Origin: a virus
Length of the DNA stretch: 64,000 nt
Strand: one strand, 5' to 3'
IMG/VR virus record: IMGVR_UViG_3300045988_092861
Span: 14,226-78,225 of that record
In this document: positions 1,868 to 64,000 of the stretch, in pieces
Position numbering within the stretch: the stretch's first letter is position 1
How the letters are laid out: the number at the start of each line of letters is the position of its first letter
Program-made: the position numbers and the translations under genes
Notes under the pieces: generated by a model
What the model saw: only the letters and a program-made list of their open reading frames with translations
The model's database searches: none
Told to the model about the DNA's origin: nothing

Positions 1868-2713
1868 ATGGAATACGATTACAGTAAGCTCAGAGAGTAC
1901 ATCAAGCGTTGTAAGTGGCAATGGGCTACTTCTATGATAGACGTTCCTCACGAGTATATCCACAGAGACAAATGCGCTTTGACACGTGATGAATTCTATT
2001 ACTTCGTCAGCGCACAAAGAGACAATGGAGTCCACGAAAGATGGGGAAAGTATAATTTCCCTTACCTTTACATTGACGGTTATAAGTATTGGACGATGGG
2101 TGACCCATTCGAGACTACTTGGATTTTGAACAGACAGAAGGTTTTCAACGAGTTCGATTTCCTTGAGTGGCCAATACCGCGAATCTATTCGAACCAGGAG
2201 ATGGACGTGATGGCAAGATCTATCATGTTCACGTTCAAGAACAGAAGATTTTTCGAGGCAGGCATCGGAAACGGAGACTTCGTCGCCTACACCAAGATAA
2301 AACCGGAAATGTATTATGGAGTTGATCCTAGCAAGAAAGCAATCAAGCAGTTCAGGGATAAGACCTCTGGTTTTTTCCGAAGATGTTCTACTATTTCTTT
2401 TGAGGAGGCGATAAAGAAATGGATGTCGGCAGACAGCGTTGTGGTTGCTCTTTTCGGTACAGCTTCCTACTTCATGCCTCAGTATCTCCGTAAACTGGGC
2501 GAGAGTGGTCTGGATTATTGCCTTATGTTCTACAAGGATGACTACACCCCTGCAGAGTTCGAGGAAATGCACCATTTCACCTACGACAGAATGCAGCTGA
2601 AATCAATGTTCCCGAATTGTAACATATACAATCACAAGAATTTCATAACCATTTCAAGTAAAAAAATCATCTGGCAACAGACGACATTAGAAAATGAAAT
2701 ATTCCCAGTATGA
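1868..2713 (+). CDS. SAM-dependent methyltransferase with N-terminal phage-type domain
   Basis: The C-terminal half carries FFEAGIGNGDF (motif I-like), YYGVDPS and VVALFGTASY. It is visibly paralogous to the next ORF. The N-terminal WQWATSM..PHEYIHR..YKYWTMG domain is common in phage proteins. Confidence 0.6.
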   Translation: MEYDYSKLREYIKRCKWQWATSMIDVPHEYIHRDKCALTRDEFYYFVSAQRDNGVHERWGKYNFPYLYIDGYKYWTMGDPFETTWILNRQKVFNEFDFLEWPIPRIYSNQEMDVMARSIMFTFKNRRFFEAGIGNGDFVAYTKIKPEMYYGVDPSKKAIKQFRDKTSGFFRRCSTISFEEAIKKWMSADSVVVALFGTASYFMPQYLRKLGESGLDYCLMFYKDDYTPAEFEEMHHFTYDRMQLKSMFPNCNIYNHKNFITISSKKIIWQQTTLENEIFPV

Positions 2714-3236
2714 TAAAATAGCAAGTAAGTACGACACTTTGTTTCGTGATGAAATGAGTCTCGTTGAGAACCACGAGGTGGGGGAAAATCTCCCACCTCT
2801 CAGTGGTTCAATTCTAGACATCGGATGCGGAACCGGCTTACTTACAGAGATTGCAGAAATCGACCCGCAGGAATACTTAGGAGTTGATCCTAGTAAAGGA
2901 ATGTTGGAGCAGTTCATTAACAAACACCCTGAATATAAGGAAAGGGTAGTCTGCGAGCCTTTCGACGGTAAAAACCTGGACTGCAAGAATTTTGATAACA
3001 TTGTAGCTTTGTTCGGCTCTCCATCTTATCTTTCGCGGTATGCTGTTCTTTCAATATCACGGTGTAAAGCCCGAAAGTTCTTGATGTTTTACAAGGAGAC
3101 GTATCACCCCGTCACTTACGAGAAATGCGATGTAGAATTTAGGCATTTCTTCTATTCCAAGAAGGTCTTGTGCAGTCTTTTCGGTGAAGAAAACGTATCA
3201 GAGTATCACAATTATTTAATAGTAAATTGCGTATGA
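2694..3236 (+). CDS. Class I SAM-dependent methyltransferase
   Basis: ILDIGCGTGLLTE (motif I), YLGVDPSKGMLEQF and IVALFGSPSYL. Paralogous to the C-terminal half of 1868-2713. Confidence 0.75.
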   Translation: MKYSQYDKIASKYDTLFRDEMSLVENHEVGENLPPLSGSILDIGCGTGLLTEIAEIDPQEYLGVDPSKGMLEQFINKHPEYKERVVCEPFDGKNLDCKNFDNIVALFGSPSYLSRYAVLSISRCKARKFLMFYKETYHPVTYEKCDVEFRHFFYSKKVLCSLFGEENVSEYHNYLIVNCV

Positions 3237-7521: not shown

Positions 7522-7526
7522 CAGGT

Positions 7527-15182: not shown

Positions 15183-15297
15183 TAAAGGAGAAAGATAAAA
15201 GCACTGAAATTCATCCGGAACCTAAGCCCAAATTGAGTCAGGCAGGGGCGCCAATTAGGCCTGTTTGACCTTGGATGGTTTCAGTGCTTCATTTTTA
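15183..15297 (+). ncRNA. Candidate ~115-nt rod-like sRNA; may also act as a bidirectional terminator
   Basis: An 11-bp closing stem (15199-15209 with 15279-15289) continues into about 8 more pairs (15211-15218 with 15271-15278). Inner CAGGC/GCCTG stem. A 3' CATTTTT run follows. It sits between convergent genes. Confidence 0.4.
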
Positions 15298-16863: not shown

Positions 16864-17035
16864 ACAATTTCATTTTAAAGTGTTTACAGCAATCCCAGTT
16901 GAGAAGAACGCTCCATTCTTGATATGGGCATTTGGCTAGGATAGGCTGACCTTTAAGGCTCATACTATGGAAGTCAGTAGCATAAGCGCATTCACGGCAG
17001 AAGTGCCGTTTCTTATCTTCTTTCTTTTTTCTCAT
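16841..17035 (-). CDS. Small zinc-ribbon-like protein
   Basis: 64 aa with CRECAY...KCPY...DCCKH cysteines. Sits between the portal and MuF genes. Confidence 0.45.
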   Translation of the reverse strand: MRKKKEDKKRHFCRECAYATDFHSMSLKGQPILAKCPYQEWSVLLNWDCCKHFKMKLYEKAKTA

Positions 17036-17037
17036 GA

Positions 17038-18453
17038 CTACTCCTCCGAGAATAAGTTAGGCATAGTAGCTGCTGTTCTGGTTGCCTCGGCTTCGTCCTC
17101 TTCGCGAATCTCTTGGTAAGTAGCGTCTGGGTCGTCGGAAATGCCAGCACGTTTGATTGACTCTTTCTGGCTGATGATTGGCTTGTTTCCGTTGCCCTTC
17201 ATCCACTTTTCAATTTGGGTCATCTCGTCCTCTTGGATGAATGGAGTGATGATGTGCTCTACCGTAATCTCATCCATTCTAGCCTCCCATTTCGTATTCA
17301 TCTTGGCAAGGAAAGCCTTTATGACGTTAGTCTCTCTCTCGAAGCCTTCAATCCAGGCACCCGTCTCCTCTCCTATCTTAAGATGGGCATCCATGAGGAG
17401 TGTCTTTCTTGAATCATAGCCGATATTGCCAAGACTCTTCAAATTCTCGAAACTGATGTCCGGCATCTGGGACTGCATGAAGAAAAGCTTGACGAGAGTG
17501 TCAACGTGATACTTAAGAGCCTCGATAGCCTGCTGCCAAGACACGTAGCTAACATCGCCGTCTTCGCTGACTCTATACACCCTCTTGCTCTCTCCCTTTC
17601 GCTCCATTCCAACGATGGCACCGGCAATCTTCAAGACAGGAGCGGAATTGTATGCCACAACATCGCTGTTTCTGGAAATGGTGTACTCGATATTCTCACG
17701 TATAGGTTTCAATCCTTCCCAGCATGGCTTGTGCCGGTACCAGAAAACGGCTGGAATCTTGTCGATAGAAATCTCATTTTCATCCACCAAATTCCATCCG
17801 GACTCTTCATCGTCTGAAGACAGGTCCCACTTGTAATGATGGTCTGCGGTATAGGTCTCGAAGAAGGTGTGCTCTGTGTCAGTAACCTTACGCTTGTACT
17901 CGAATGACAGGGCGAGCATGTCTCCATACTCATCGAAGTAAGGATAGATGTCAACTCCGTCCATTGGAGAGAATGTCTTACATTTCAGCTTATACTGGCT
18001 GTCGAAGCCGTAGAGCTTGTTAGGCTTCTTCTGCGTGTACCAAAGTGTGAACATCTGACAAGAGGCGTAATAGCACTTTGCTCTGTGCATGTTCATGGCA
18101 TCAATGTGTGCACAGGTGTAGATTTTCTCGATGGCACGCGCAATCGTCTTCAGTTCCTCGTCAGCCTGATTATACGTATATACACGCTTGACTGGTATAG
18201 CCATTGTAAATTCAGAGATTCTTCGTGTAAGAAGCTTCTCCAATCCGATAGGCAATCTAGCTGCCTTTTCTACAATTCCGTCATCAAGCGTTCTGTCCTG
18301 TCTGCCTACGTGGTCGTTTACGATTTCATGGAGCATAGGCTCATACTCAGACAACAGGGTACTCCAAAGTGGAATATCCAGCACTCGTTGTTTCAGCTCT
18401 CCTATGATGCTGCCAACGTCATTTCTTTTAAAAAGTTCATTAAAATCTATCAT
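17038..18453 (-). CDS. Portal protein (SPP1 gp6-like, inferred)
   Basis: 471 aa, immediately upstream of the MuF-like gene in the same operon. Size and synteny are typical of portals. No motif-level proof. Confidence 0.7.
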   Translation of the reverse strand: MIDFNELFKRNDVGSIIGELKQRVLDIPLWSTLLSEYEPMLHEIVNDHVGRQDRTLDDGIVEKAARLPIGLEKLLTRRISEFTMAIPVKRVYTYNQADEELKTIARAIEKIYTCAHIDAMNMHRAKCYYASCQMFTLWYTQKKPNKLYGFDSQYKLKCKTFSPMDGVDIYPYFDEYGDMLALSFEYKRKVTDTEHTFFETYTADHHYKWDLSSDDEESGWNLVDENEISIDKIPAVFWYRHKPCWEGLKPIRENIEYTISRNSDVVAYNSAPVLKIAGAIVGMERKGESKRVYRVSEDGDVSYVSWQQAIEALKYHVDTLVKLFFMQSQMPDISFENLKSLGNIGYDSRKTLLMDAHLKIGEETGAWIEGFERETNVIKAFLAKMNTKWEARMDEITVEHIITPFIQEDEMTQIEKWMKGNGNKPIISQKESIKRAGISDDPDATYQEIREEDEAEATRTAATMPNLFSEE

Positions 18454-24894: not shown

Positions 24895-25614
24895 ATGGGA
24901 TATAAATATAAAGTAATTATGAAAAAGTTTATTGGTACAAAGGTCATTATGGCAGAGCCTATGACTATGACAGAAGCACAGAAAGTGCTTGGTAGAGAAC
25001 TGAAGCCAGCAACCACTGAGGAAGATGGCTACCTTGTAGAGTACAAGAACGGATATAAGTCTTGGTCTCCTAAGAGTGTGTTTGATGAGTCTTATAAGTC
25101 AGCAGAGACATTCTTGGACAGAATGAAATTGGAGTTTGAAAGTGAAGTTGATAAATTTAAAAAGGGTGATACCTTTATTCGCTCTGAGAAGTTTAACGAG
25201 CTTCCTCTTGTTGCAAGAGTTCTTCTTTATGCGCAGAACAAGACTCAGAAAATGTACTGTGCCTTGTTGGAGAACAGAATTGACGCCGCAGAGAATAATA
25301 ACCCATTGCTAAAGCTATTTGACTTCGGCACAGCCATCAAGTTCTTGGAGGCAGGTGGAGCTATCCGCCGTAGTGGTTGGTATGGAAAGGGATTGTTTGT
25401 TGTAAAGCAGGTTCCTTCTCACATTACAGGTGACATCATTCCTAAGATGCAGTCATTGCCACAGATTGCTAAGGACATCTTGATGAAGCGTGATAATCCA
25501 CACATTGATTACACAAATCAGATGTTGATTATCAATCCTGATGGCAGAGCAGACTCATGGGTTCCATCATCTTCCGATGTGTTTGCGGAAGACTGGGAAG
25601 TTGTAGTTGAGTAA
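24895..25614 (+). CDS. Two-domain protein with C-terminal DUF2829 (Tad2-like) domain
   Basis: The C-terminal FDFGTAIKFLEAGGAIRRSGWYGKG...SWVPSSSDVFAEDWEVV fits the DUF2829 pattern. The N-terminal FIGTKVIMAEPMT...GYLVEY.NGYKSWSPKSVF domain is common in phages. Confidence 0.6.
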   Translation: MGYKYKVIMKKFIGTKVIMAEPMTMTEAQKVLGRELKPATTEEDGYLVEYKNGYKSWSPKSVFDESYKSAETFLDRMKLEFESEVDKFKKGDTFIRSEKFNELPLVARVLLYAQNKTQKMYCALLENRIDAAENNNPLLKLFDFGTAIKFLEAGGAIRRSGWYGKGLFVVKQVPSHITGDIIPKMQSLPQIAKDILMKRDNPHIDYTNQMLIINPDGRADSWVPSSSDVFAEDWEVVVE

Positions 25615-28433: not shown

Positions 28434-28766
28434 ATGAAGAAAAATGTATTGACCCTCACAGTCAGCAAGCAATGGTTCGACATGATTGTTGCTTGCGAAA
28501 AGACCGAGGAGTATCGGGAGATAAAACCTTATTGGATTAAACGTCTGACCACTAACTGCGAAGTAGCTTATGATGTGGCGGCAGAAACATATTGCGGAAA
28601 GGTGCTCTATCGCCCTTACACCCACGTTCTCTTCATCAACGGATACCGAAAGGATAGCCCACGTATCGAAAAGGAGATTGATAGTATCACTATCGGTAAG
28701 CCTAAGAAGGGTATGTGCCCTGACGAGTGGCTTGATACAGAGTTTTTTATTATTAAGTTTAAGTGA
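28434..28766 (+). CDS. ASCH-domain-like protein
   Basis: LTVSKQWFDMIVACEKTEEYREIK...VLFINGYRKDSP resembles phage ASCH proteins. Confidence 0.5.
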   Translation: MKKNVLTLTVSKQWFDMIVACEKTEEYREIKPYWIKRLTTNCEVAYDVAAETYCGKVLYRPYTHVLFINGYRKDSPRIEKEIDSITIGKPKKGMCPDEWLDTEFFIIKFK

Positions 28767-29010: not shown

Positions 29011-29185
29011 GGAGGAAATCCGAGAATACCATAGAAGGTATTATCAGGAGCATAAGGAGCATCTATTGGCAAGAATGGAAGTTTATCGTAAAGAGAATGC
29101 TGAAAGAATTACCGCAAACAGAAGATATAACAGAAAGAGAAAGAAAGCCTTGGGCGGCTTAATGAACCCAAATATAAAATTATGA
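28997..29185 (+). CDS. Hypothetical basic protein
   Basis: 62-aa ORF, R/K/E-rich. Confidence 0.4.
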   Translation: MARSEEEIREYHRRYYQEHKEHLLARMEVYRKENAERITANRRYNRKRKKALGGLMNPNIKL

Positions 29186-29481
29186 GCAGAGGAAAACATT
29201 TTAGTGCAGAAGAGATTGAGTTCATCAAGGTTAATGCTTTGGTGATGACAACAACAGAGATTGCGAAGAAGCTCAATCGTAATTATTGGGCTATACATCG
29301 AAAGATGCAGGAACTCGGAATTAGTAAGAGCCACACGTTTACAGCAAATGAGGACTTTATTATCAGACAGATGTATGGCAAGTTTCCAGCAAAGGCTATT
29401 GCGACAAAGATCGGTGTAGACGAAAATGCGATTTACAATCGTTGCAAGAAACTTAAGTTAACGAAAGGAGGTACGAAATGA
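29182..29481 (+). CDS. Putative DNA-binding protein (two HTH-like repeats)
   Basis: Repeated segments TTTEIAKKLNRNYWAIHRKMQELG and PAKAIATKIGVDENAIYNRCKKL. ATGA overlaps on both sides. Confidence 0.4.
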   Translation: MSRGKHFSAEEIEFIKVNALVMTTTEIAKKLNRNYWAIHRKMQELGISKSHTFTANEDFIIRQMYGKFPAKAIATKIGVDENAIYNRCKKLKLTKGGTK

Positions 29482-30110
29482 TAGTTATTGTGACTGCAAT
29501 GGATAAGGAATATAACCTTATCAGAGAATGGCTTGCAAAGGCGAATGTAAAAAATACAGCATTACTCAAAACAGGTGTAGGAAAGGTGAATGCCGCAAGC
29601 GGCTTAAGCGACTTTCTATCTTCTGTTACAAGTGACGTTGTTACGAGAGTTATCTCTGTAGGATGTGCCGGTGCTGCCGTTGCAGGTTTGAAACCTGGTA
29701 ATGTCATAATTGGTAATTCATACTGTTACCATGATGTATATTGTGGTGAACCGAATGCTAACGGTCAAATTCAAGGTATGCCAGCAGTCTTCCCTTCAGA
29801 TTTTGCGTGGATCGATATGGATGAACGGTTCAGATTAGGAACTATAGCAACCGGAGATAAGTTTGTTACTACAAGAGAGCAAGTGTTAGCGATTAAGGAT
29901 TTTCTTCCTAATTCGTATAACGTATGCGCCATTGATATGGAGTCTGCCGCCCTTGCTCAAGTATGCTACAAGAAAGGGATTGGTTTTACCTCCATTCGAG
30001 TTATTAGCGATAATCCTCTGGAACCAAGCCAAACCGAGCAGTATGCAGGATTTTGGGACAATTTAGCAGAAAAAGCGTTTAATGTTGTATGTAAGTTGTT
30101 AGAGAAATGA
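29478..30110 (+). CDS. mtnN: 5'-methylthioadenosine/S-adenosylhomocysteine nucleosidase (Pfs/MtnN)
   Basis: TAMDKEY (catalytic Glu position), GVGKVNAA, VGCAGA, IDMESAALAQVC and IRVISD all align with E. coli MTAN motifs from memory. Confidence 0.85.
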   Translation: MIVIVTAMDKEYNLIREWLAKANVKNTALLKTGVGKVNAASGLSDFLSSVTSDVVTRVISVGCAGAAVAGLKPGNVIIGNSYCYHDVYCGEPNANGQIQGMPAVFPSDFAWIDMDERFRLGTIATGDKFVTTREQVLAIKDFLPNSYNVCAIDMESAALAQVCYKKGIGFTSIRVISDNPLEPSQTEQYAGFWDNLAEKAFNVVCKLLEK

Positions 30111-30571
30111 TACCGAGTTTCAAAGTTGATCATACGAAACTAAAGCCAGGTCTTTATGTTTCAAGAGTAGACAAATTAGGGTTGGAAATAGTCACCACAT
30201 TTGACGTCCGTGTATGTAAGCCAAACAGAGATATGATGTCTCCAGCGATTGCTCATACTATCGAGCACTTGATGGCTGATTATATGCACAACAAGAGTTC
30301 ACTGAAAGATTATGTCTTATATTTCGGGCCTATGGGATGCTTAACTGGTTTCTATCTCATTCTTAGAGGCGTTTGGACTTCTGCGATAATAAAGGATAGT
30401 ATAGCAGTCGCCTTTAAAGAATGTTCTGTTTCAAAAGTAATTCCAGGAGCTTCAGAAAAAGAGTGTGGTAACTATAGATTAAACGATTTAAAAGGGGCCA
30501 CATTATTATGTAAAAAGTTTGCTTCATATCTTTCGAGTGTCGGAGAAGACAAACTTACTTATCCTATGTAA
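30107..30571 (+). CDS. luxS: S-ribosylhomocysteine lyase (LuxS)
   Basis: HTIEHL (HxxEH metal site), GPMGCLTGFY (catalytic Cys) and ECGNY (third metal ligand). 154 aa. ATGA overlap with mtnN. Confidence 0.9.
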   Translation: MIPSFKVDHTKLKPGLYVSRVDKLGLEIVTTFDVRVCKPNRDMMSPAIAHTIEHLMADYMHNKSSLKDYVLYFGPMGCLTGFYLILRGVWTSAIIKDSIAVAFKECSVSKVIPGASEKECGNYRLNDLKGATLLCKKFASYLSSVGEDKLTYPM

Positions 30572-30589
30572 TATTTATATGTAACTATA

Positions 30590-30658
30590 AAGTATTTAAT
30601 CATTAAGTATATTTTCTTATAATATATTTTGTGATTAAATACTTTTTATTTAATTTTG
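30590..30658 (+). promoter_or_regulatory. Family-2 operator pair plus -7 box upstream of head module
   Basis: Inverted 13-mers AAGTATTTAATCA (30590-30602) and TGATTAAATACTT (30633-30645). -7 TAATTTTG at 30651-30658 followed by CGGC. Confidence 0.5.
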
Positions 30659-30730
30659 CGGCATTACTTACTATCGCTTCGTACTGGGATATTTTCTTGA
30701 ATTTATTGTTCAATTAAATATTTAGTTAGA

Positions 30731-31852: not shown

Positions 31853-33160
31853 ATGCAACAGAGTTCTTTATTTCTTAAGTATATCATGAGTTTCTTCCCA
31901 ATCTTGAAGACTTTGATTGAGAAGATTAACGGTAAGCGCAAGAACGAGATGACGTATCTCCATAAGGATACATCCATTCTCCGCCGCGTTTATTCTACCG
32001 ACAACAAATGGGAAGCCGACACGGTCGACACCTCTTACGTAGCAGCTGACTACGTAGCTGTTGATTCACCTGTTCCTTTGAAGTCTCGTGACAAGATTTC
32101 TACCGCAAACGGCAAATTGCCAAAGGTCGGTATGAAGAAATTCTTGAAGGAGTCAGATATCCTCGCTCTCAGACTCATGGAAGCACAGGGCGGTCAGACA
32201 GCAGAGATTCGTCGTAAGTTGGCTCAGGACCCGGTAGCTTGTAATGTCGGTGTTGATGAGCGTAATGAGTACGCCCTTCTGTATGGTCTTTCTAACGGCT
32301 ACGTAGCTGTTCGTGACGACGATAATCCAAAGGAGTTGCTCCGTATCAAGTATCGGTACTTGCCAGAAAATCAGCTCGGCATCAACAATGTTGATACTGG
32401 TGTTACAGTTGCAGACTTGAAGGAATGTATCGAGCAAGCATCGAATGATGGCAACACCATCTTGATCTTCTGGATTGGAAAGGCTAAGTTTGACGAATTG
32501 AAGAAGGCACAGGACGCTCGCGAGCTTGTTGCCAACTACAAGGGTCAGACTTATGACTCCAACACAAAGCTGCCGGTTCCTACTGCCAGCGTATTCCAGG
32601 AGGCATTCTTGGACGAGACCGGTGTATCATTCCGCATCATCAACCGTACTGTCCGCTTGGAGCATGATGGCGTGAAGAAGAGTGTTAAGCCTTGGAACAA
32701 CGATATGATTATCGGTGTCTGCTCACAGATGATTGGTGCCCTCGTTTACGGTCAGGTAGCAGAGGCAACCAACAGAGTGGCAGGTGTAACCTATCAGCAG
32801 ATTGATTACAAGCTTATTTCTCAGTATTCAACAACTGATCCATTGCGTGAGACTACTGCGGTGCAGGCATACTGCTTGCCTGTCATCGAGGACGTTGACA
32901 CAATCTATCAGATTGATACTAAGCTGGCAGACCCAGACGTTTCTGTTGATACCGAAAAGGAGAAAGCAGATACAGAGGACGCTAAGGTAACAATCTCTGA
33001 TGTGACCTACAAGAAGCCGGAGGCTATCACAACTCTCAACGCTCTTGGTGCTACACTTCCTAGTAACGCCAGCGACAAGGAGGTTATTGATGCCTACAAT
33101 GAGCTGCCTCCTACAAAGAAGAAGGAGTTCAAGGATAACGCAGCTAAAGCTGAGGAGTAA
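31853..33160 (+). CDS. Major capsid protein
   Basis: 435 aa with a strong SD (AAGGAGG 31840-31846). Its position after the scaffold and decoration genes supports the call. No motif-level proof. Confidence 0.65.
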   Translation: MQQSSLFLKYIMSFFPILKTLIEKINGKRKNEMTYLHKDTSILRRVYSTDNKWEADTVDTSYVAADYVAVDSPVPLKSRDKISTANGKLPKVGMKKFLKESDILALRLMEAQGGQTAEIRRKLAQDPVACNVGVDERNEYALLYGLSNGYVAVRDDDNPKELLRIKYRYLPENQLGINNVDTGVTVADLKECIEQASNDGNTILIFWIGKAKFDELKKAQDARELVANYKGQTYDSNTKLPVPTASVFQEAFLDETGVSFRIINRTVRLEHDGVKKSVKPWNNDMIIGVCSQMIGALVYGQVAEATNRVAGVTYQQIDYKLISQYSTTDPLRETTAVQAYCLPVIEDVDTIYQIDTKLADPDVSVDTEKEKADTEDAKVTISDVTYKKPEAITTLNALGATLPSNASDKEVIDAYNELPPTKKKEFKDNAAKAEE

Positions 33161-36267: not shown

Positions 36268-39200
36268 ATGCCAAGCATAAAATTCGATACAATAGTCGAG
36301 ACCTCTAAGGTAGTTTCTGGTTTTCGAGACATTCAGAACGCAGTTCATCAGACTGCCGAGAGGGTTGAGAAGGACGGAAAGTCCATTGACGACATAATCT
36401 CGAAAATACAAAACAGCATGAACATTGCCATTGGCGGTTGGAGCATTGGCAAGTTCGTCAATCAGATGATGCAGGTCCGCGGTCAGTTCCAGCAGACAGA
36501 AATGGCTTTCAAGACAATGTTGCAGTCTGAGGAGAAAGCTGATGCGCTTATGAAGCAGTTGATCCGCACGGCAGCCGTCACACCTTTCGGGATTGAAGAC
36601 GTTACAGAGGGAGCCAAGCAGCTCCTTGCGTTTAACGTAGCAGCCGAGGATGTCAACAAGACGCTTATCGGATTGGGAGACGTTGCTGCAGGTATGGGCC
36701 TGAACCTTAAAGACCTCGTGATGCTTTATGGCACCACCATCGCCAAGGGCAAGATGGACACGATGGACTTGTATCAGTTCCTCAACCGAGGTATTCCTAT
36801 CGCAGACGAGATTGCAAAGGTTATGGGCCTTGACGTTACCAATGCTATCAAGGAGGTCCAGAAGCAAATCAAGGCTGGCAAGGTAACCAGCGACGTTTTC
36901 ATCCAGGCAATGCAGAATATGTCTGCAGAGGGTAGTAAGTTCGGTGGATTGATGGAAGCTCAGTCTAAGACCATTACCGGCCAGATAAGCAACATCAAGG
37001 ACGCTATCGAGCAGATGTTCAACGAACTTGGTAAGTCTCAGGAGGGTGTCATCAATACCGGATTGGGAGTTGTTTCTACCCTCGTAGAGAACTGGAAGAC
37101 TGTAGGAAAAGTTCTTATGACCGTTGTCGCTGCCTATGGAGCATACAAAGCTGCTGTTTTGGCAATGATTGCAATATCAAAGGCTCAAATAGCTTGGGAA
37201 AGTGCTAAAGCATTTATTTCTTTGGCACGTTCTATAACTTCCGCAAAGGATGCGATGGCGCTGTTCAACCTTGTTGCGTCATCTAATCCTTTGGGTCTTG
37301 TCTTGGGTGTAATTGCTGCTGGTGTTACCCTATTCGGATTATTCGGCGATAGTGCTGAAGATGCAGCAACCAAGACCTCCAAGTTTACCGAGAGTGCAAA
37401 TGAAGCATCAAGTAAGGTCGAGTCGTTAGTCTCCATTCTGAAGACTGCAAAGGAAGGCTCCAAGGTTTATAAGGACACCATCAAGGAGCTGTCAAGCATA
37501 TATAGCAACTATGGTATTACCATTGACAGGATCAAAGAAGATGAGAGTAATCTCGTTAGTGTTAAGCAGCAGGAGATTGATAAGTCTAACGAGCTTATCG
37601 AGCAAATCAAGCTGGAGGCTACAGAGCGCAACAGAGCCAATGCAATCTCTAAGGCCAACGAAGAATACAACAACCGTGTTGATAGTGCTCAGCAAGCCCT
37701 TTTGGATAAGTTGAAGGATTATGGAACCTCCAGTAGTGGTATTGCGGTAGGCATACAGAACATCGTATCTGATTCGGTTATCAAGCAGTTTGATGAGTTG
37801 ACACAGAAGATGTCTGGCTTGAATGAGCACTCCAAGGAGTATCAGACATATCTGAAACAATACAATCAGCTGGAAGCTTCTTTGATTTCAGAATCAGAAA
37901 ATCTTGCTAATGCTTTTGGGTTTACAGGAGACAAGACAAGCGATGCCAGGAAGGCTTTGATAGGCTATCTCTATGAACTTCGAGCTGCAAAGAAGCTGCA
38001 TACCGAGGAGGCTGATAATATCAACAAAGCTGCAGATGCTACTGAAGATTTCGGTAATAAGGCTACCTCAACCAAGAACAGGATAAACGCTTTGCAGAAG
38101 CAGCTCCAGGGTGCCGGTGAGGATGTACACGTTCTCTACAACCGTGTCAAGGAGTTCATGCAGAACTATTCCGAGAACAACATCAACTTCCACGTCAACT
38201 TCGATGCCAAGATACCATCGTGGATGCAGAATATGAATATTCCGGAACTGGGACGTTTAGGTAAGTACTTCTCTGCTTTGGCACGTGACCTTGCAAACAA
38301 CAAGAAGTCTGGTGCGCTAGTCAATGGTAAATGGATGTCAACAAATGATATCGCTCAACGAGGATGGGATTATACCAATGCAGCGAACACCAAGCAGACA
38401 AAAGCTGACGAAGAGGAAAAGCAGAAGCGTCGCGAAAAGGAAGAGGCAGAAGCAAACGCAAAGAAGAACGCTGCCAAAGCCAAGAAAGCCGCAGCCGATG
38501 CCAAGAAGCAGGCAGAAGACCGCAAGAAGGCCCAGGAGGAACTTAATGAGGACTTGAAGCAGCTGCAGCAGGAAAACATCGACAATGATATATCTCAGAT
38601 GCAGGAAGGCACGGAAAAGAAGCTTGCTCAAATCAAGAACGACTATGCCAAGCGCAAAGCCGAGATTGATAAGCAAGAAGCAGAGTTCAAGAAGAAAAAC
38701 AAGGAAGCTGGCAAGAAAGTAACCCTTACCTCTGCTCAGTCCAATGCCCTCAATAAGGCCAGAGACCTCGCTACCCAAGAGTATAACAAGAAGCTTGATG
38801 AGGTCAACAGGGAAGCCCTCACCTCTATGCGTGACTACTTGAAGGAGTATGGCTCACTCTATCAGCAGAAGCAAGCCATTGCCGAGGAGTACGAGGAAAA
38901 GATTGCCAAGGCTCAGACGGAAGGCGAGAAGAAGACTCTCCAGCAGGAGAAGAAAAAAGCACTCGCCAACTTCGACTACGAAAGCATCTCTATGGGCATT
39001 GACTGGAAGGGTCTGATGAGTGGTGTAGGTAATATGAGCAAGGAAATGCTCAAACCAATGCTTGAAAAGTTAGATGCCTATACCAACACGGACAAATTTC
39101 AGCAAGCCGATACTCAGACACAACAGAAGGTTGTTGACCTCATGCAGGAGATTCGCACTTACCTCGGGACTGATCAGAATGCAACGTGGCAGAACCTTGC

Positions 39201-41130
39201 TGCATCCATCAGCAGTTTCAATCAGTCTGTTGCTGAGTACCAAAAGGCTGTTGAGGAAGAGAAGAGACAGAGTGAAAACTTCAAGTCCGCAAAGGCTCTC
39301 CATGACAAGGGCAGTATCTCCGACAAGGAACTTCAGCAGGCAAAGAAAGCTACTGATGATGCAAGTCAAGCGGTAGTTGATGCCAAAAACAAAATGAATA
39401 CCTTCGGTATCAAGCTCAACTCAGCTACGGAAGCCGTTACGAACTATACTTCGGGGCTTACTGCTGCACTCAACAAGCTCGGAACGTGGAAAGGCAACGA
39501 AGGGTTCTCTGAGGTACAATCATCAGTAGGCAACATAGATGCTTTGAAGGGTGTTCTTGATGAATCTCTCTCCACTATGGGCAACGGAGTAGCCAAGACG
39601 ATGGGCGCAACCATATCGAAAGGTTTAGGAAGTGCTCTCGACACTATCGGAGGTGGAATAACCAATATGATGGGTAGTGCTCTCGGCTCAATCGTAGGAG
39701 TGGTGGCACAGATACCGAAACTCATCCTCAATCTCGCAAGTTCCATAAAGAGCTTCGTGACCGGTATTCTTGATTCGTTTACTCAGCTACTTCAATTCGA
39801 ATGGCTATCAGATTTGGTTAACAGCATTCTTGCTTCCGTGGGAAATCTCATTGATGCCATCTTCGACCTTCCAGAAAACCTATTCAAGGCTCTTGAAAGC
39901 ATTGTTGTTAATGGTGTTGGCGGTCTCTTAGATAACGTGTTAGGTCGTGTAGGTAACGTTCTCTCTCTCGGTGCACTTTCTTCGAAAGGTCCATCTGATT
40001 GGTTCACCAACTCGAATGCAGCGAAGGTAAATCAACGCATATCGGAGTTAACGGATAGTAATGCGCGGTTGGATGATTCCATCAATAGGCTGAGGAACAC
40101 CATGGATAAGTCCTATGGTCAACAAACCAAGAAAGCCTATGAGGAAGCCAAAAGACAGCAACAGCAGAAGAATGACAACCTTAAAGAGATTGCCAAGCAG
40201 AAAGCAAGCTATCATAGCTCCCATAAATCTTGGAATCACTATTGGAGTGGGTTCAGTAGTGATGAGATAAAGAAAATCCAAGAAGCTATTGGCAAGGACT
40301 TCAATGGTGACATCTGGAGTTTGGATGAGAACGACATAAACACCATGTTAGGCTATGAGTGGTTCACTACTAAGATACGCAGAACAGGTAAGATATACAA
40401 GGGGCGTTCCGCTTATGGAGAGGCAGTTCTTAAAGCCATGCAGGACTGGGGAGACTCAGCAGGCACGATGGATGAAATTACTGACGAGTTCAAGGAAGCC
40501 CTCACTCAGATTTCCTTTGACAGCATGAGAGATAGTTTTATCAGCAACCTCATGGACATGACCAAGAGTGCACAGGATTTCTCTGATGATTTCGCAGAAA
40601 TGATGCAGAAAGCCCTCCTCTCCTACTCCATGGACGACCTCATTGAAGGCGACTTGAAGAAGCTTTATGATGATTGGGCAAAGGCAATCGATGATAAAGA
40701 AGGAAAGCTCACAGAAGCAGACATAGACGCATTCAACAAGCGTTACGATGATATAGTCCAGGAAGGCTTGAAGAGACGTGACGAGTGGGCAAAAGTGACA
40801 GGCTACACTGGTTCTTCATCCTCATCACAGACCGCAACAAGCGGAGGATGGGCATCTATGGGGCAAGATACCGCCGATGAGCTGAATGGTCGCTTCACCG
40901 CCCTGCAGATTGCAGGAGAGTCTATCGCTCAGAACATGACTACCACCATATCACAGATGGAGAGCATCGTTACACTCGGAATCTCAACCAATGGCGCAGT
41001 ATTAGAGATTAGAAACATGATGATCATGACAAACAGCTACCTCGAAGACATCGTGAAGTATTCAAAGCTCACCTATAATGACTTCGGAACAAAGCTGGAT
41101 GACATGATCAGAAGATTAAAGGATATTTGA
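36268..41130 (+). CDS. Tail tape measure protein
   Basis: 1620 aa. TP901-type core (AAVTPFGIEDVTEGAKQLLAFNV...LIGLGDVAAGMG), TM-like segments and long K/E/A coiled coils. Confidence 0.9.
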   Translation: MPSIKFDTIVETSKVVSGFRDIQNAVHQTAERVEKDGKSIDDIISKIQNSMNIAIGGWSIGKFVNQMMQVRGQFQQTEMAFKTMLQSEEKADALMKQLIRTAAVTPFGIEDVTEGAKQLLAFNVAAEDVNKTLIGLGDVAAGMGLNLKDLVMLYGTTIAKGKMDTMDLYQFLNRGIPIADEIAKVMGLDVTNAIKEVQKQIKAGKVTSDVFIQAMQNMSAEGSKFGGLMEAQSKTITGQISNIKDAIEQMFNELGKSQEGVINTGLGVVSTLVENWKTVGKVLMTVVAAYGAYKAAVLAMIAISKAQIAWESAKAFISLARSITSAKDAMALFNLVASSNPLGLVLGVIAAGVTLFGLFGDSAEDAATKTSKFTESANEASSKVESLVSILKTAKEGSKVYKDTIKELSSIYSNYGITIDRIKEDESNLVSVKQQEIDKSNELIEQIKLEATERNRANAISKANEEYNNRVDSAQQALLDKLKDYGTSSSGIAVGIQNIVSDSVIKQFDELTQKMSGLNEHSKEYQTYLKQYNQLEASLISESENLANAFGFTGDKTSDARKALIGYLYELRAAKKLHTEEADNINKAADATEDFGNKATSTKNRINALQKQLQGAGEDVHVLYNRVKEFMQNYSENNINFHVNFDAKIPSWMQNMNIPELGRLGKYFSALARDLANNKKSGALVNGKWMSTNDIAQRGWDYTNAANTKQTKADEEEKQKRREKEEAEANAKKNAAKAKKAAADAKKQAEDRKKAQEELNEDLKQLQQENIDNDISQMQEGTEKKLAQIKNDYAKRKAEIDKQEAEFKKKNKEAGKKVTLTSAQSNALNKARDLATQEYNKKLDEVNREALTSMRDYLKEYGSLYQQKQAIAEEYEEKIAKAQTEGEKKTLQQEKKKALANFDYESISMGIDWKGLMSGVGNMSKEMLKPMLEKLDAYTNTDKFQQADTQTQQKVVDLMQEIRTYLGTDQNATWQNLAASISSFNQSVAEYQKAVEEEKRQSENFKSAKALHDKGSISDKELQQAKKATDDASQAVVDAKNKMNTFGIKLNSATEAVTNYTSGLTAALNKLGTWKGNEGFSEVQSSVGNIDALKGVLDESLSTMGNGVAKTMGATISKGLGSALDTIGGGITNMMGSALGSIVGVVAQIPKLILNLASSIKSFVTGILDSFTQLLQFEWLSDLVNSILASVGNLIDAIFDLPENLFKALESIVVNGVGGLLDNVLGRVGNVLSLGALSSKGPSDWFTNSNAAKVNQRISELTDSNARLDDSINRLRNTMDKSYGQQTKKAYEEAKRQQQQKNDNLKEIAKQKASYHSSHKSWNHYWSGFSSDEIKKIQEAIGKDFNGDIWSLDENDINTMLGYEWFTTKIRRTGKIYKGRSAYGEAVLKAMQDWGDSAGTMDEITDEFKEALTQISFDSMRDSFISNLMDMTKSAQDFSDDFAEMMQKALLSYSMDDLIEGDLKKLYDDWAKAIDDKEGKLTEADIDAFNKRYDDIVQEGLKRRDEWAKVTGYTGSSSSSQTATSGGWASMGQDTADELNGRFTALQIAGESIAQNMTTTISQMESIVTLGISTNGAVLEIRNMMIMTNSYLEDIVKYSKLTYNDFGTKLDDMIRRLKDI

Positions 41131-62551: not shown

Positions 62552-62584
62552 GGAGCTTCCAAGGGTTAGTCCTTTGGTTGCTCC
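62552..62584. terminator. Bidirectional terminator hairpin between convergent genes
   Basis: GGAGCTTCCAAGGG / CCTTTGGTTGCTCC forms 12 pairs, interrupted by a 2-nt mismatch, with a 5-nt loop. It overlaps the integrase stop codon. Confidence 0.6.
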
Positions 62585-63825
62585 TTATATAGAACGTAAT
62601 CCAATACTTTTCTATTTGCAGCGTCTATATTGGCAACACTCTTGTCAATATAGATAGCTGTTGTCCTGTTTCCATGGGAATGTCCCAATGCTTCGGCAAT
62701 GATTTCTTCGGGTATTCCTATGGAGAAGGCTATTGTTGCCCACGTATGTCTAGCCCAATACAGAGAGATATGAGTAAACAAAGGATTATGCTTCGTATGA
62801 TATTCCTTCTGAAAATCGTGAGCTTTCTTTTTCTCGTTCTTTTCTCTAGTGACAGGCCCTATTGCCTTCAGTCCCTTGTTTGCCTTGCACACAAATTGCT
62901 TGTAGTTCCTCATGTTCTCTGAGAAATTGACTAAATTCGTCTTTCCTCTATACCTATTTATTATCTGTACGGCTTCCGGTTCCAGTCTTATACTATACAA
63001 TCTTCCGGTCTTCTTTCGTCTATACAGCAATCTTCCATCTACTACATTCTCATCTGTACAATTAAGAATATCGGCAGGATTTATCCCGATCAAGAAGAAT
63101 GTAAGCTTGAAATAGTCCAAGTACTTCTGCTGCCATGGCTGAACATTATAATTAAATAAGGTGCGTAGTTCATCTACAGAAAGAGAACGTTTTTCTGTCT
63201 GTTCCGGATTTATATCGAATGTTCTCATCGGATAATGGCTGGTTATCTCATTATCGATAGCATCGTTGAAAACAGCACGTATGTTTCTGAAATGTATGTT
63301 CCTTGAGTTCTTCTTTAACCCTTGTCTTACCAACTCGGCATCCAACCTTTTCAGCCAATCCTTTGAAATATCTTCAAAAGCGTAGGTATCTACCTTGCTA
63401 TCGAAATCGCGCATCTTCTTCAAAGTGGTTGCATATATTTCCCTGGTCCTTTGTGCTGAACGACTATTCATATATTCTATATACCTATTTATAAATAAGT
63501 CTTTCTTCTTAATATCAGGGTCTAGATAGGCCACAACCTTATTCTTTATCTGCGTTGAAGTCTGTTTAGTAAGCTCTCCCTTCATCTGCAGTTCCAATAT
63601 GGCATTTTCAATCTCTACCAATTTGTTCTTGACAAATATTTCCAATCTCTGCTTGTTTGGTGCATCAACTATTCTTTGTTTCTTTACATCCCATTGTTCC
63701 TTTTTCAATTTTACACCAAGAGAAATATAAGCTGCCTGTCGCTTCTTTGTGATTGCAACTTTGAGCGGTGCAGGCTCTCCGTCCTTGACCGCTCTTGTAT
63801 CTAAGTATAGTTTCGTTGTTATCAT
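62566..63825 (-). CDS. int: Tyrosine-type site-specific integrase
   Basis: C-terminal ARHTWATIAF...LGHSHGNRTTAIYI (R, H-x-x-R, H and Y catalytic pattern). Bacteroides-type N-terminal arm-binding region MITTKLYLDTR. Start set at ATG 63825; the track's extension is encoded by the tandem repeats. Confidence 0.85.
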   Translation of the reverse strand: MITTKLYLDTRAVKDGEPAPLKVAITKKRQAAYISLGVKLKKEQWDVKKQRIVDAPNKQRLEIFVKNKLVEIENAILELQMKGELTKQTSTQIKNKVVAYLDPDIKKKDLFINRYIEYMNSRSAQRTREIYATTLKKMRDFDSKVDTYAFEDISKDWLKRLDAELVRQGLKKNSRNIHFRNIRAVFNDAIDNEITSHYPMRTFDINPEQTEKRSLSVDELRTLFNYNVQPWQQKYLDYFKLTFFLIGINPADILNCTDENVVDGRLLYRRKKTGRLYSIRLEPEAVQIINRYRGKTNLVNFSENMRNYKQFVCKANKGLKAIGPVTREKNEKKKAHDFQKEYHTKHNPLFTHISLYWARHTWATIAFSIGIPEEIIAEALGHSHGNRTTAIYIDKSVANIDAANRKVLDYVLYKEQPKD

Positions 63826-63890
63826 TTGCAAGCTATTTGCAAGCAGAATTGTGCAAAAATGTGCAAGAATGTGCAAGAATGTGCAGGATT
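63826..63890. repeat. Phased TGCAAG-type direct repeats (two at 11-bp spacing, then four 10-bp units)
   Basis: TTTGCAAG at 63826 and 63837, then GTGCAAAAAT GTGCAAGAAT GTGCAAGAAT GTGCAGGATT at 63851-63890. Lies between the integrase start and the tRNA. Confidence 0.85.
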
Positions 63891-63947
63891 CTACTTAGTT
63901 GGATAAAATACAATGTTTGGGAAATGCCTAATTTTCAGTGTTTTCTG

Positions 63948-64000
63948 CGGAAAGAGGGGGATTCGAACCCCCGATTCCCTTTAGGGGAATACACGCTTTC
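63948..64000 (-). tRNA. tRNA, 3' portion (class II with long variable arm; possibly Ser), truncated by window edge
   Basis: The minus strand reads ...ATTCCCCTAAAGGGAAT (variable-arm hairpin) C GGGGG-TTCGAAT-CCCCC TCTTTCC G. T arm, 3' acceptor strand and discriminator G are present. The anticodon lies outside the window. Confidence 0.6.

What the first reader, a model, noticed from the sequence alone, without database searches (positions are those of the whole stretch)
29478..30571. Phage-encoded Pfs (MTA/SAH nucleosidase) plus LuxS operon with intact catalytic residues
The two translationally coupled genes together convert S-adenosylhomocysteine to homocysteine plus DPD, the AI-2 precursor. 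All residues I can place are retained.
- LuxS: the HxxEH metal site, the catalytic Cys in PMGC, and the Cys in CGNY.
- Pfs: the Glu/Asp positions in AMDKE, DMES and ISD.

The pair sits at the end of the small-gene block, just upstream of the head operon. Two non-exclusive readings are possible: removal of inhibitory SAH produced by the phage's three or more methyltransferases, or phage-driven AI-2 production that manipulates community quorum signalling. Complete Pfs/LuxS pairs are uncommon in phage genomes as far as I know.
Basis: partly seen in the sequence, partly recalled or inferred. Interest (0 to 1): 0.72.

Follow-up and report, generated by a model that had tools for sequence, protein, structure and literature searches.

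The report
Gut prophage Pfs–LuxS methyl-cycle cassette
A prophage of a gut Bacteroidales-type bacterium carries its own, apparently functional copies of the two enzymes that recycle the methylation by-product S-adenosylhomocysteine (releasing the AI-2 signal precursor as a side product); the genes are real and conserved in this phage family, but such viral genes were already catalogued in gut viromes, so this is a solid but not surprising find.

Summary
Window 29478-30110 encodes a 210-aa MTA/SAH nucleosidase (Pfs/MtnN). Window 30107-30571 encodes a 154-aa LuxS.

The pair lies deep inside a prophage integrated at tRNA-Ser(GGA) in a Gram-negative, Bacteroidales-like host. It is not a recent host capture:
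- The best cellular LuxS is about 50% identical and the best cellular Pfs about 40%.
- The phage-family LuxS proteins form one clade.
- Both genes are under strong purifying selection (dN/dS about 0.06).
- The cassette sits in one fixed slot, between a small HTH gene and the conserved head-operon leader, in over 140 viral contigs.

The slot varies among relatives: Pfs-LuxS (most), LuxS alone, MetK-LuxS, MetK-Pfs-LuxS, or empty. An unrelated phage-like contig carries an overlapping MetK-Pfs-LuxS trio.

This favours an activated-methyl-cycle support module, with DPD/AI-2 as an unavoidable by-product. Selection for AI-2 itself is not excluded.

I found one methyltransferase, not three or more. 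Viral luxS/mtnN, including both on one genome, were already reported as common human-gut AMGs (Kieft et al. 2021).

Verdict: a new member of a known kind, of moderate-to-low interest.

The parts
29182..29481 (+). 99-aa two-repeat HTH protein, translationally coupled (ATGA) to the Pfs gene. It is the conserved left border of the slot.
   Evidence: It matches phrog_323 'transcriptional regulator' at 9e-20. It is present at 63-100% identity in all relatives, including those with an empty slot. Median dN/dS is 0.04. A role as a late-gene regulator is inference only.
29478..30110 (+). Pfs/MtnN: 5'-methylthioadenosine/S-adenosylhomocysteine nucleosidase, a short 210-aa form.
   Evidence: Family scores: PF01048 96.8 bits; TIGR01704 79.5 against cut-off 73.8. 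Residues E11, E155, D178, R174, S177, M8, M154 and F129 align to E. coli E12, E174, D197, R193, S196, M9, M173 and F151. AF2 pLDDT is 96.1, and the Foldseek top 50 are all MTANs. Median dN/dS is 0.065.
30107..30571 (+). LuxS: S-ribosylhomocysteine lyase, 154 aa.
   Evidence: Family scores: PF02664 156 bits; NF002604 159.8 against cut-off 158. The best PDB match is B. subtilis LuxS 1J98, E 1e-25. H50, E53, H54, C78, C120, S4, H9 and R35 are invariant. Median dN/dS is 0.063.
30572..30730 (+). Conserved AT-rich leader of the head operon. It contains a Bacteroidota-type -7 box TAATTTTG (30651-30658) and an invariant block TCGTACTGGGATATTT (30679-30694). It is the right border of the slot.
   Evidence: The leader aligns across full-cassette, LuxS-only and empty-slot relatives. 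A sigma-70 scan was uninformative. Promoter function is inferred, not shown.
2694..3236 (+). The only recognisable SAM-dependent methyltransferase of the prophage, and so its only evident own source of SAH.
   Evidence: It matches Methyltransf_25/12/11, phrog_4752 'tRNA methyltransferase', and weakly UbiE/BioC/CmoB-type NCBIfam models.
62566..63876 (-). Tyrosine integrase at the prophage edge. The true start is probably the ATG near 63825, giving 419 aa.
   Evidence: It matches phrog_1. Its domains are PF17293+PF13102(+PF00589). A 97%-identical cluster has 1968 members, and the first named relative is from Prevotella sp. at 53%. In L178-L180 it is adjacent to host genes.
63947..64000 (-). The 3' part of the host tRNA-Ser(GGA) gene (attachment site), cut off by the window end.
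   Evidence: The window tail is identical to the 3' part of the tRNA-Ser(GGA) found intact at L179:9791-9879, between host TatD and the integrase.

Best explanation
The pair is an auxiliary 'activated methyl cycle' cassette of a temperate Bacteroidales (Prevotella/Segatella-like) phage.

Steps:
1. Pfs/MtnN hydrolyses S-adenosylhomocysteine, and probably also MTA and 5'-deoxyadenosine, to adenine plus S-ribosylhomocysteine.
2. LuxS cleaves S-ribosylhomocysteine to homocysteine plus DPD.

The two genes are translationally coupled to each other and to an upstream HTH gene. They form the 3' end of the long plus-strand small-gene transcription unit, directly before the head-operon promoter. They are therefore most likely made during lytic development.

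Their likely selected role is to keep SAH from accumulating, since it inhibits SAM-dependent methylation by product inhibition, and to return adenine and homocysteine to the nucleotide and methionine/SAM pools while the phage replicates. DPD/AI-2 leaves the cell as an unavoidable by-product.

What is shown computationally: gene identity, intact active sites, fold, prophage location, conservation, purifying selection, and the MetK association in relatives.

What is inferred: enzyme activity, timing of expression, and which product is the selected one.
For: - Enzyme identity: family scores, catalytic residues and fold.
- Phage ownership: the pair is flanked on both sides by hallmark genes. The prophage is integrated at tRNA-Ser next to chromosomal genes.
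- Old, constrained phage genes: cellular LuxS is at most about 51% identical and cellular Pfs at most about 40%. The phage-family LuxS clade has 85/100 NJ bootstrap support. dN/dS is 0.065 for Pfs and 0.063 for LuxS, lower than the scaffold gene at 0.147.
- Methyl-cycle signature. In relatives the same slot holds MetK-HTH-Pfs-LuxS (L088/L089) or MetK-HTH-LuxS (L086/L087). A different phage-like contig (L339) has an overlapping MetK-Pfs-LuxS trio. MetK, Pfs and LuxS are three of the four steps of the cycle.
- The gene order mtnN-luxS equals the Bacteroidales operon order, and is the reverse of the clostridial luxS-pfs order in L171.
- Position: same strand as the flanking lytic genes, at the end of the small-gene block and before the conserved leader.
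- Kieft et al. 2021 independently found viral mtnN and luxS to be under purifying selection.
Against: - The prophage has only one recognisable methyltransferase, so its own SAH load is not obviously large.
- Pfs, the step that actually removes SAH, is the less persistent gene. In a capsid-sampled, LuxS-unbiased set of 81 distinct slots, 66 had Pfs-LuxS, 9-10 had LuxS only and 3 were empty. This points to a product downstream of SRH (homocysteine or DPD) as the selected output, and shows the cassette is dispensable.
- No expression data exist. The promoter and timing assignments rest on position and a short motif.
- Whether the host has mtnN-luxS or sahH is unknown.
- Pfs has Cys in place of Ser76, a more polar 5'-substituent pocket, and lacks a hairpin. 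Its substrate preference is therefore untested.
Confidence: 0.6

Rival explanations
1. Signal production is the selected function. The phage carries LuxS, with Pfs to feed it, in order to raise DPD/AI-2 output from infected or lysogenic cells. This would manipulate AI-2-responsive neighbours, or serve as a cue for the phage's own decisions.
For: - LuxS is the most persistently retained gene of the slot, including LuxS-only variants in at least two sub-lineages.
- AI-2 release is biochemically unavoidable once LuxS acts.
- luxS-carrying Bacteroidales do produce AI-2.
- Links between AI-2 or quorum sensing and phage behaviour are discussed in the literature retrieved.
Against: - No AI-2 receptor or transporter was found among the prophage ORFs scanned.
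- The cassette is embedded in a lytic-type operon. It is not arranged as a moron with its own promoter and terminator.
- MetK co-location is unexplained by a signalling role.
- Bacteroidaceae did not respond to AI-2 under the tested conditions. Likely host genera (Segatella, Phocaeicola, Paraprevotella) already have luxS in their core genomes, so the phage may add little new signal.
Confidence: 0.2
2. Sulfur/methionine catabolism AMG, following the reading of Kieft et al. The cassette funnels SAM-derived sulfur to homocysteine, which then feeds cysteine or sulfide production for phage protein synthesis. On this reading, protecting methylation is not the point.
For: - Kieft et al. 2021 place metK, mtnN and luxS among AMGs 'inferred to indirectly produce sulfide', and find them dominant in human-associated viruses.
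- LuxS-only variants fit a homocysteine-output role.
- The prophage also has a PAPS-reductase-like gene at 5071-6264.
Against: - No downstream homocysteine- or cysteine-converting enzyme (metB/C, cysK, megL) was found in the window.
- The PAPS-reductase-like gene is paired with a ParB_N gene in an IbrA/IbrB-like arrangement, not with sulfate-assimilation genes.
- MetK consumes methionine. It would drain the amino-acid pool, not supply it.
Confidence: 0.1
3. The nucleosidase has a different main substrate: MTA, 5'-deoxyadenosine from radical-SAM enzymes, or another adenine nucleoside including a defence-related signal. On this reading LuxS is secondary.
For: - Pfs fails one MTAN equivalog cut-off: NF004079 scores 107.9 against 169.
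- It has Ser76 replaced by Cys, pocket changes at F105, Y107 and P113, and a deleted hairpin.
- The prophage carries counter-defence genes such as a Tad2-like protein.
Against: - The catalytic and adenine/ribose-binding residues are those of MTAN.
- The pocket motif is shared with chromosomal Bacteroidales proteins annotated as MTAN.
- The gene is translationally coupled to LuxS, whose only known substrate is the SAH-derived product SRH.
- No radical-SAM gene was seen in the window.
Confidence: 0.06
4. The pair is passenger or host DNA: a recent capture or a mis-assembled host segment with no role for the phage.
For: - The slot is empty in 3 of 81 capsid-sampled relatives.
- luxS is frameshifted in two MAG contigs, L172 and L173.
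Against: - There is no close cellular homologue.
- The position is fixed in over 140 viral contigs from many samples.
- The LuxS clade is monophyletic and roughly tracks capsid divergence.
- dN/dS is about 0.06.
- GC content in this part of the window (0.40 across 28-32 kb) falls within the range seen across the rest of the window, 0.35-0.47.
Confidence: 0.03

Closest known systems
Viral organosulfur/methionine-cycle AMGs (metK, mtnN, luxS, dcm) catalogued from IMG/VR by Kieft et al. 2021 (bioRxiv 10.1101/2021.01.05.425418)
   Same: - The same genes occur on viral genomes from human gut samples.
- That study reported purifying selection.
- It noted luxS and mtnN co-occurring on one genome.
- It suggested Prevotella-type hosts at lower identity.
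   Different: That work is a catalogue across many viruses. The points below are added here for one family:
- The fixed slot between the HTH gene and the head-operon leader.
- The alternative slot contents: Pfs-LuxS, LuxS only, MetK-LuxS, MetK-Pfs-LuxS, or empty.
- The monophyly and depth of the phage LuxS clade.
- The tRNA-Ser prophage context.
- The atypical short Pfs.
Bacterial Pfs(MtnN)/LuxS branch of the activated methyl cycle, in particular the mtnN-luxS operon of gut Bacteroidales (Kennedy et al. 2026, bioRxiv 10.64898/2026.07.27.740950); structural references E. coli MtnN 1JYS/1NC1 and B. subtilis LuxS 1J98/1JQW
   Same: - The same two enzyme families, the same gene order (mtnN then luxS), and the same catalytic residues and folds.
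- The Pfs shares the YHDV(Y/W)CG..N..GQ motif with chromosomal Bacteroidales MTANs.
   Different: - The genes are encoded by a prophage.
- They are only about 40-50% identical to any cellular copy found.
- The Pfs is 210 aa, with the beta2-beta3 hairpin deleted and Cys at the Ser76 position.
- The genes are coupled to a phage HTH gene, not located next to yfhO.
Phage T3 SAM lyase (SAMase) and other phage manipulation of the SAM pool
   Same: Both are phage-encoded enzymes acting on the SAM/SAH node of host metabolism. (This comparison rests on my own knowledge of the field.)
   Different: T3 SAMase destroys SAM to disable SAM-dependent restriction and BREX. The cassette here, with MetK in relatives, works in the opposite direction: it sustains SAM-dependent chemistry by clearing SAH and regenerating precursors.
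Phage-encoded quorum-sensing genes, e.g. the agr cassette of C. difficile phage phiCDHM1 (Hargreaves et al. 2014, PMC3901668)
   Same: In both cases a phage carries a gene whose product generates a diffusible bacterial signal.
   Different: The agr genes are dedicated signalling genes. LuxS is primarily a metabolic enzyme whose signal is a by-product. No receptor or response gene was found in this prophage.

Membership tests
LuxS (S-ribosylhomocysteine lyase, PF02664) | Sequence match above the curated family thresholds. | tested here: met
   PF02664 scores 156.1 bits against GA 27. NCBIfam equivalog NF002604 scores 159.8 against 158, a narrow pass. The other LuxS equivalog sub-models score below their cut-offs.
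LuxS (S-ribosylhomocysteine lyase, PF02664) | Metal ligands His54, His58 and Cys126 (B. subtilis numbering). | tested here: met
   H50, H54 and C120 align to them and are invariant in alignment A1.
LuxS (S-ribosylhomocysteine lyase, PF02664) | Catalytic acid/base residues Cys84 and Glu57, and substrate-contact residues Ser6, His11 and Arg39. | tested here: met
   C78, E53, S4, H9 and R35 are all invariant. The residue roles come from established LuxS literature, recalled from my own knowledge.
LuxS (S-ribosylhomocysteine lyase, PF02664) | Enzymatic conversion of SRH to homocysteine plus DPD; a homodimer with interface active sites. | not testable with these tools
   This needs protein expression and an assay. 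No structure was modelled for LuxS.
MTA/SAH nucleosidase (MtnN/Pfs; PNP_UDP_1 superfamily) | Sequence match above the curated thresholds. | tested here: inconclusive
   PF01048 scores 96.8 against 25.1, and TIGR01704 scores 79.5 against 73.8; both pass. NF004079 scores 107.9 against 169 and fails. The alignment starts only at residue 18, matching profile position 34.
MTA/SAH nucleosidase (MtnN/Pfs; PNP_UDP_1 superfamily) | Catalytic triad Glu12, Glu174 and Asp197 (E. coli numbering). | tested here: met
   E11, E155 and D178 are invariant across 54 homologues.
MTA/SAH nucleosidase (MtnN/Pfs; PNP_UDP_1 superfamily) | Supporting active-site residues Met9, Ile50, Ser76, Phe151, Met173, Arg193, Ser196 and Phe207. 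| tested here: inconclusive
   M8, V34, F129, M154, R174, S177 and Y189 are conserved or conservative substitutions. Ser76 is Cys63, and Cys is the consensus in the phage clade.
MTA/SAH nucleosidase (MtnN/Pfs; PNP_UDP_1 superfamily) | Hydrophobic 5'-alkylthio pocket contributed by the neighbouring subunit (Phe105, Tyr107, Pro113). | tested here: not met
   The equivalents are E91, N93 and Q99. The same motif occurs in chromosomal Bacteroidales proteins annotated as MTAN, so this is a subfamily trait and not decay. The consequence for substrate preference is unknown.
MTA/SAH nucleosidase (MtnN/Pfs; PNP_UDP_1 superfamily) | MTAN fold. | tested here: met
   The AF2 model has pLDDT 96.1 and pTM 0.92. 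The Foldseek top 50 PDB hits are all MTANs or closely related nucleosidases, with TM 0.77-0.84. The beta2-beta3 hairpin is absent; it is also absent in some longer-contig homologues, P0195 and P0236.
Viral auxiliary metabolic gene (operational definition) | Located inside a virus, with viral hallmark genes on both sides. | tested here: met
   TerS/TerL at 8141-10145 and the portal at 17038-18453 lie upstream. MCP at 31853-33160 and the TMP at 36268-41130 lie downstream. The integrase and the tRNA att site are at the end.
Viral auxiliary metabolic gene (operational definition) | Conserved among related viruses and under purifying selection. | tested here: met
   85 of 89 LuxS-sampled loci and 66 of 81 capsid-sampled loci have the pair. 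dN/dS is about 0.06.
Phage quorum-sensing system (signal plus response) | A cognate receptor or response component for the signal, encoded by the phage or shown in the host. | tested here: inconclusive
   No LuxP-, LsrB- or dCache-type protein appeared among the ORFs scanned with Pfam, PHROGs or NCBIfam. Many small ORFs were not scanned, and the host genome is not available.

The most novel reading that the evidence does not exclude
In this widespread Prevotella/Segatella-type prophage family, LuxS is the real target of selection and Pfs is not. The evidence is that LuxS persists when Pfs and MetK come and go. On this reading the phage tunes DPD/AI-2 or homocysteine output of its host.

In addition, such phage-borne mtnN-luxS cassettes could be the vehicles behind the 'numerous independent replacements' of sahH by mtnN-luxS reported across Bacteroidota (Kennedy et al. 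2026). That would make phages drivers of which gut Bacteroidales are AI-2 producers.
Probability: 0.12. Interest if true: 0.7.

Novelty: new member of a known kind. Interest (0 to 1): 0.35.

Why it matters
If the cassette is active, induction or carriage of a very common gut prophage would change the SAH/SAM balance of its Bacteroidales host. The scale is large: the integrase cluster has about 2,000 member sequences, and the Pfs clusters have hundreds to thousands. An active cassette would also add to the pool of AI-2 in the gut, a signal to which many Firmicutes and pathogens respond.

The family offers a natural series for testing what phages gain from methyl-cycle genes: empty slot, LuxS only, Pfs-LuxS, and MetK-Pfs-LuxS, all on an otherwise similar backbone. 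That question has so far been treated only at catalogue level.

The finding does not overturn anything. The kind of gene was already reported in gut viromes, and the biochemistry is textbook.

Tried and rejected
1. DNA-level search of the pair against 50,697 phage records found no match. A protein search gave only 12 records. Four were uncultured gut scaffolds at 32-44% identity. The rest were short 'phage' records or a Salmonella genome that look like host sequence.

2. PHROGs has no family for LuxS, and only a marginal AMP-nucleosidase-like hit for Pfs.

It cannot be used to name the closest cellular LuxS or the host. I fell back on cluster names, contexts and a small NJ tree.

4. I first thought the cassette was hyper-diverged relative to its flanks: capsid 97% against LuxS 76% and Pfs 57%. 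This was rejected as a cassette-specific effect. The upstream HTH gene has equally high synonymous divergence (pS 0.63). The boundary is a module-level recombination breakpoint in the luxS-scaffold gap, where pS drops to 0.14.

5. A 'Pfs-only' architecture in L172/L173 turned out to be luxS with a frameshift near codon 110. It is either a pseudogene or a homopolymer assembly error.

6. The sigma-70 promoter and terminator scan gave counts equal to shuffled sequence, and is the wrong model for Bacteroidota.

7. A search for further methyltransferases was negative. I used Pfam, PHROGs and NCBIfam on all sizeable non-structural ORFs, a motif scan, and PDB sequence searches of three unassigned ORFs.

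8. The 'Bxa ADP-ribosyltransferase' PHROG hit of the head-morphogenesis protein gave no ART domain in Pfam.

9. Host species could not be named. Only the order/family level is inferred, from:
   - integrase domain type and a Prevotella relative;
   - capsid relatives in Cellulophaga and Porphyromonas phages;
   - a GH108 lysin;
   - a host flank with TonB, A2M and DUF1573.
Full report
**What is there**

The stop of the first overlaps the start of the second at ATGA. The preceding 99-aa gene (29182-29481) overlaps the first ORF in the same way. The unit is therefore three translationally coupled genes: HTH, Pfs, LuxS.

The family assignments are secure.
- The second protein matches Pfam LuxS at 7.8e-46. 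It just clears an NCBIfam S-ribosylhomocysteine lyase equivalog cut-off, 159.8 against 158.
- The first matches the PNP_UDP_1 superfamily at 1.7e-27. It clears the TIGR01704 MTA/SAH-nucleosidase cut-off (79.5 against 73.8) but not NF004079 (107.9 against 169).

**Active sites and fold**

Against solved structures, LuxS aligns best to B. subtilis LuxS (1J98, E 1e-25).
- The metal ligands and catalytic residues are H50, E53, H54, C78 and C120. They correspond to B. subtilis H54, E57, H58, C84 and C126.
- The N-terminal substrate-contact residues S4, H9 and R35 are also present.
- All of these are invariant across phage and cellular homologues.

I aligned Pfs to the genuine E. coli Mtn sequence, fetched.
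- Kept: E12, E174, D197, M9, F151, M173, R193 and S196.
- Changed: Ser76 is Cys63.
- Changed: the residues that the neighbouring subunit contributes to the 5'-alkylthio pocket (F105, Y107, P113) are E91, N93 and Q99.
- Missing: the beta2-beta3 hairpin, about 16 residues.

The pocket motif (YHDVYCGEPNxNGQ) is shared with chromosomal proteins annotated as MTAN in Bacteroidales MAGs. The hairpin is variably present within the phage clade. These are therefore lineage traits and not decay.

An AlphaFold model built on 54 homologues is very confident (pLDDT 96.1, pTM 0.92). Its 50 best PDB matches are all MTA/SAH nucleosidases or their close relatives, with TM 0.77-0.84.

**It is phage DNA, in a prophage**

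Genes identified in the window:

| Coordinates | Strand | Assignment |
|---|---|---|
| 8141-8677 | + | small terminase |
| 8667-10145 | + | large terminase |
| 15295-16863 | - | head-morphogenesis protein |
| 17038-18453 | - | portal |
| 31853-33160 | + | major capsid protein |
| 36268-41130 | + | tape measure protein |
| 55662-56204 | + | GH108 lysin |
| 62566-63876 | - | integrase |

- The last 54 bases of the window are the 3' part of a tRNA-Ser(GGA) gene.
- That gene is intact in contigs carrying a 97%-identical integrase. There it separates the prophage from ordinary chromosomal genes: TatD, polyprenyl synthase, TonB, Cmk, IspH, alpha-2-macroglobulin and DUF1573.

Host clues point to a Gram-negative Bacteroidales host, probably Prevotella/Segatella-like. 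I could not name the species.
- The integrase has the Bacteroidota-type domain set, and its first named relative is from Prevotella sp. at 53%.
- The nearest cultured capsid relatives are Cellulophaga and Porphyromonas phages.
- The lysin is a GH108 type.

**Not a recent capture**

- In a 5.8-billion-protein search, the closest relatives of both proteins are uncharacterised metagenomic proteins that share contigs with each other.
- Every context I opened for them was the same phage backbone.
- The best cellular LuxS proteins are about 47-51% identical: a spore-forming clostridial operon with the reverse order luxS-pfs; Alloprevotella tannerae; and a Bacteroidota-like standalone gene.
- The best named cellular Pfs is 39% identical.
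- In a neighbour-joining tree the phage-family LuxS proteins form one clade (85/100 bootstraps). The clade contains all slot variants.
- Pairwise Nei-Gojobori estimates give a median dN/dS of 0.065 for Pfs and 0.063 for LuxS, against 0.147 for the adjacent scaffold gene.

**The slot and its variants**

Searching IMG/VR with LuxS returned 140 viral contigs. All 85 of the closer loci analysed (80 from that scan plus L001-L005) have HTH-Pfs-LuxS-scaffold-p130-MCP.

That sample is conditioned on LuxS. I therefore re-sampled the family with diverged capsid proteins. Among 81 distinct slot sequences:

| Slot content | Count |
|---|---|
| HTH-Pfs-LuxS | 66 |
| HTH-LuxS only | 9, plus one truncated |
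| Empty (about 200-nt gap) | 3 |
| Different upstream arrangement | 2 |

- More distant relatives carry a SAM synthetase in the same place: MetK-HTH-Pfs-LuxS (L088/L089) and MetK-HTH-LuxS (L086/L087).
- An unrelated phage-like contig (L339) has an overlapping MetK-Pfs-LuxS trio.
- Two MAG contigs have luxS frameshifted near codon 110.
- The roughly 150-nt leader upstream of the scaffold gene is conserved in all architectures. It includes a TAnnTTTG box (window 30651-30658) and an invariant TCGTACTGGGATATTT (30679-30694).
- The cassette therefore sits between the HTH gene and what is probably the head-operon promoter, at the 3' end of the upstream small-gene unit.
- Collinearity with relatives begins near 29010. 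The small-gene block upstream of that is mosaic.
- A recombination breakpoint lies in the luxS-scaffold gap. Against L016, pS is 0.6-0.8 to the left and 0.14 to the right.

**How it most likely works**

The biochemistry follows from family membership. Pfs splits SAH into adenine and S-ribosylhomocysteine. LuxS splits the latter into homocysteine and DPD, which cyclises to AI-2.

The open question is which consequence is selected. The recurrent association with MetK, in two independent phage backbones, is the strongest comparative clue. MetK, Pfs and LuxS are three of the four steps of the activated methyl cycle. The module therefore looks like a device for sustaining SAM-dependent chemistry and recycling adenine and homocysteine during phage development. 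I give this reading about 0.6.

Evidence against this reading:
- There is only one recognisable methyltransferase in the prophage.
- LuxS is retained more consistently than Pfs. This points to something downstream of SRH as the selected output.

Selection for AI-2 itself (about 0.2) remains possible, but several things weaken it:
- The cassette lies in a lytic-type operon.
- No receptor was found among the scanned ORFs.
[quoted passage not shown] It also shows that Segatella, Phocaeicola and Paraprevotella already carry mtnN-luxS in their core genomes.

**Comparison with what is known**

- Kieft et al. (2021) mined IMG/VR. They reported metK, mtnN, luxS and dcm (with cysD and cysH) as about 97% of human-associated viral organosulfur AMGs. 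They found dN/dS below 1 for mtnN and luxS, noted luxS and mtnN on single viral genomes, and linked them loosely to Prevotella.
- A 2026 digester virome paper reports one phage LuxS and interprets it as quorum sensing.
- I found no experimental study of a phage LuxS or Pfs.
- The Kennedy et al. preprint on Bacteroidales luxS does not mention phages.

The finding is therefore a well-documented new member of a known kind. What this analysis adds is the anatomy of one prevalent prophage family: a fixed slot, alternative contents including MetK, an old monophyletic origin, and an atypical short Pfs.

**Verdict**

The identity and phage ownership are right. The methyltransferase rationale and the rarity claim are not.
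- Interest is 0.35.

Noticed in passing
window 63947-64000 (minus strand), with 63850-63886: The window ends inside the 3' part of a tRNA-Ser(GGA) gene, the prophage attachment site, which ARAGORN missed because it is truncated. Between it and the integrase start lie four TGTGCAR repeats spaced exactly 10 bp apart (63850, 63860, 63870, 63880). These are candidate integrase arm-type or operator sites.
   Followed up: partly
window 30572-30730: The leader of the head operon is conserved across relatives whose proteins are only 60-98% identical. It has a Bacteroidota-type -7 box (TAATTTTG, 30651-30658) and an invariant 16-mer, TCGTACTGGGATATTT (30679-30694). The 16-mer could be a regulator site or a 5'-UTR element, possibly the target of the adjacent HTH protein.
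   Followed up: partly
window 24895-25614: A 239-aa protein combines a crAss001_48/Sequestin-type domain with a Tad2-like (anti-Thoeris) domain. The same combination is seen in relatives L087 and L177. It is a candidate counter-defence sponge.
   Followed up: no
window 4616-8144: A ParB_N gene (4616-5074) overlaps a PAPS-reductase-like gene (5071-6264) in an IbrB/IbrA-like arrangement. Three further ParB_N paralogues follow (6230-6892, 6889-7521, 7527-8144), just upstream of the terminase genes. None has a methyltransferase domain.
   Followed up: partly
window 15295-18453 (minus strand): The portal and a 522-aa head-morphogenesis protein are on the opposite strand, about 13 kb away from the capsid genes. 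The head-morphogenesis protein matches a PHROG annotated 'Bxa ADP-ribosyl transferase' and has an unassigned C-terminal domain (residues 331-515, phrog_23416). Pfam finds no ART domain.
   Followed up: partly
L172 10660-11084 and L173 3814-4238: In two NCBI MAG contigs of a related phage, luxS is split by a frameshift near codon 110, upstream of the metal-ligand Cys, at an A-rich run. It is either a real pseudogene or a homopolymer assembly error. These relatives also carry a Dam-type methyltransferase (L172 4458-5624).
   Followed up: partly
L339 5036-7477: A different phage-like contig (with dUTPase, T4_Y16D, an exonuclease, a GH19 lysin and ParB) carries an overlapping MetK-Pfs-LuxS trio. 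Its LuxS is among the nearest neighbours of the window family's LuxS clade in the NJ tree.
   Followed up: partly
window 28434-28766 versus L001 3615-3992 and 5555-5933: A small gene of the mosaic block (110 aa, no family hit) has two diverged copies in relative L001. This suggests duplication and shuffling of small early genes in the family.
   Followed up: no
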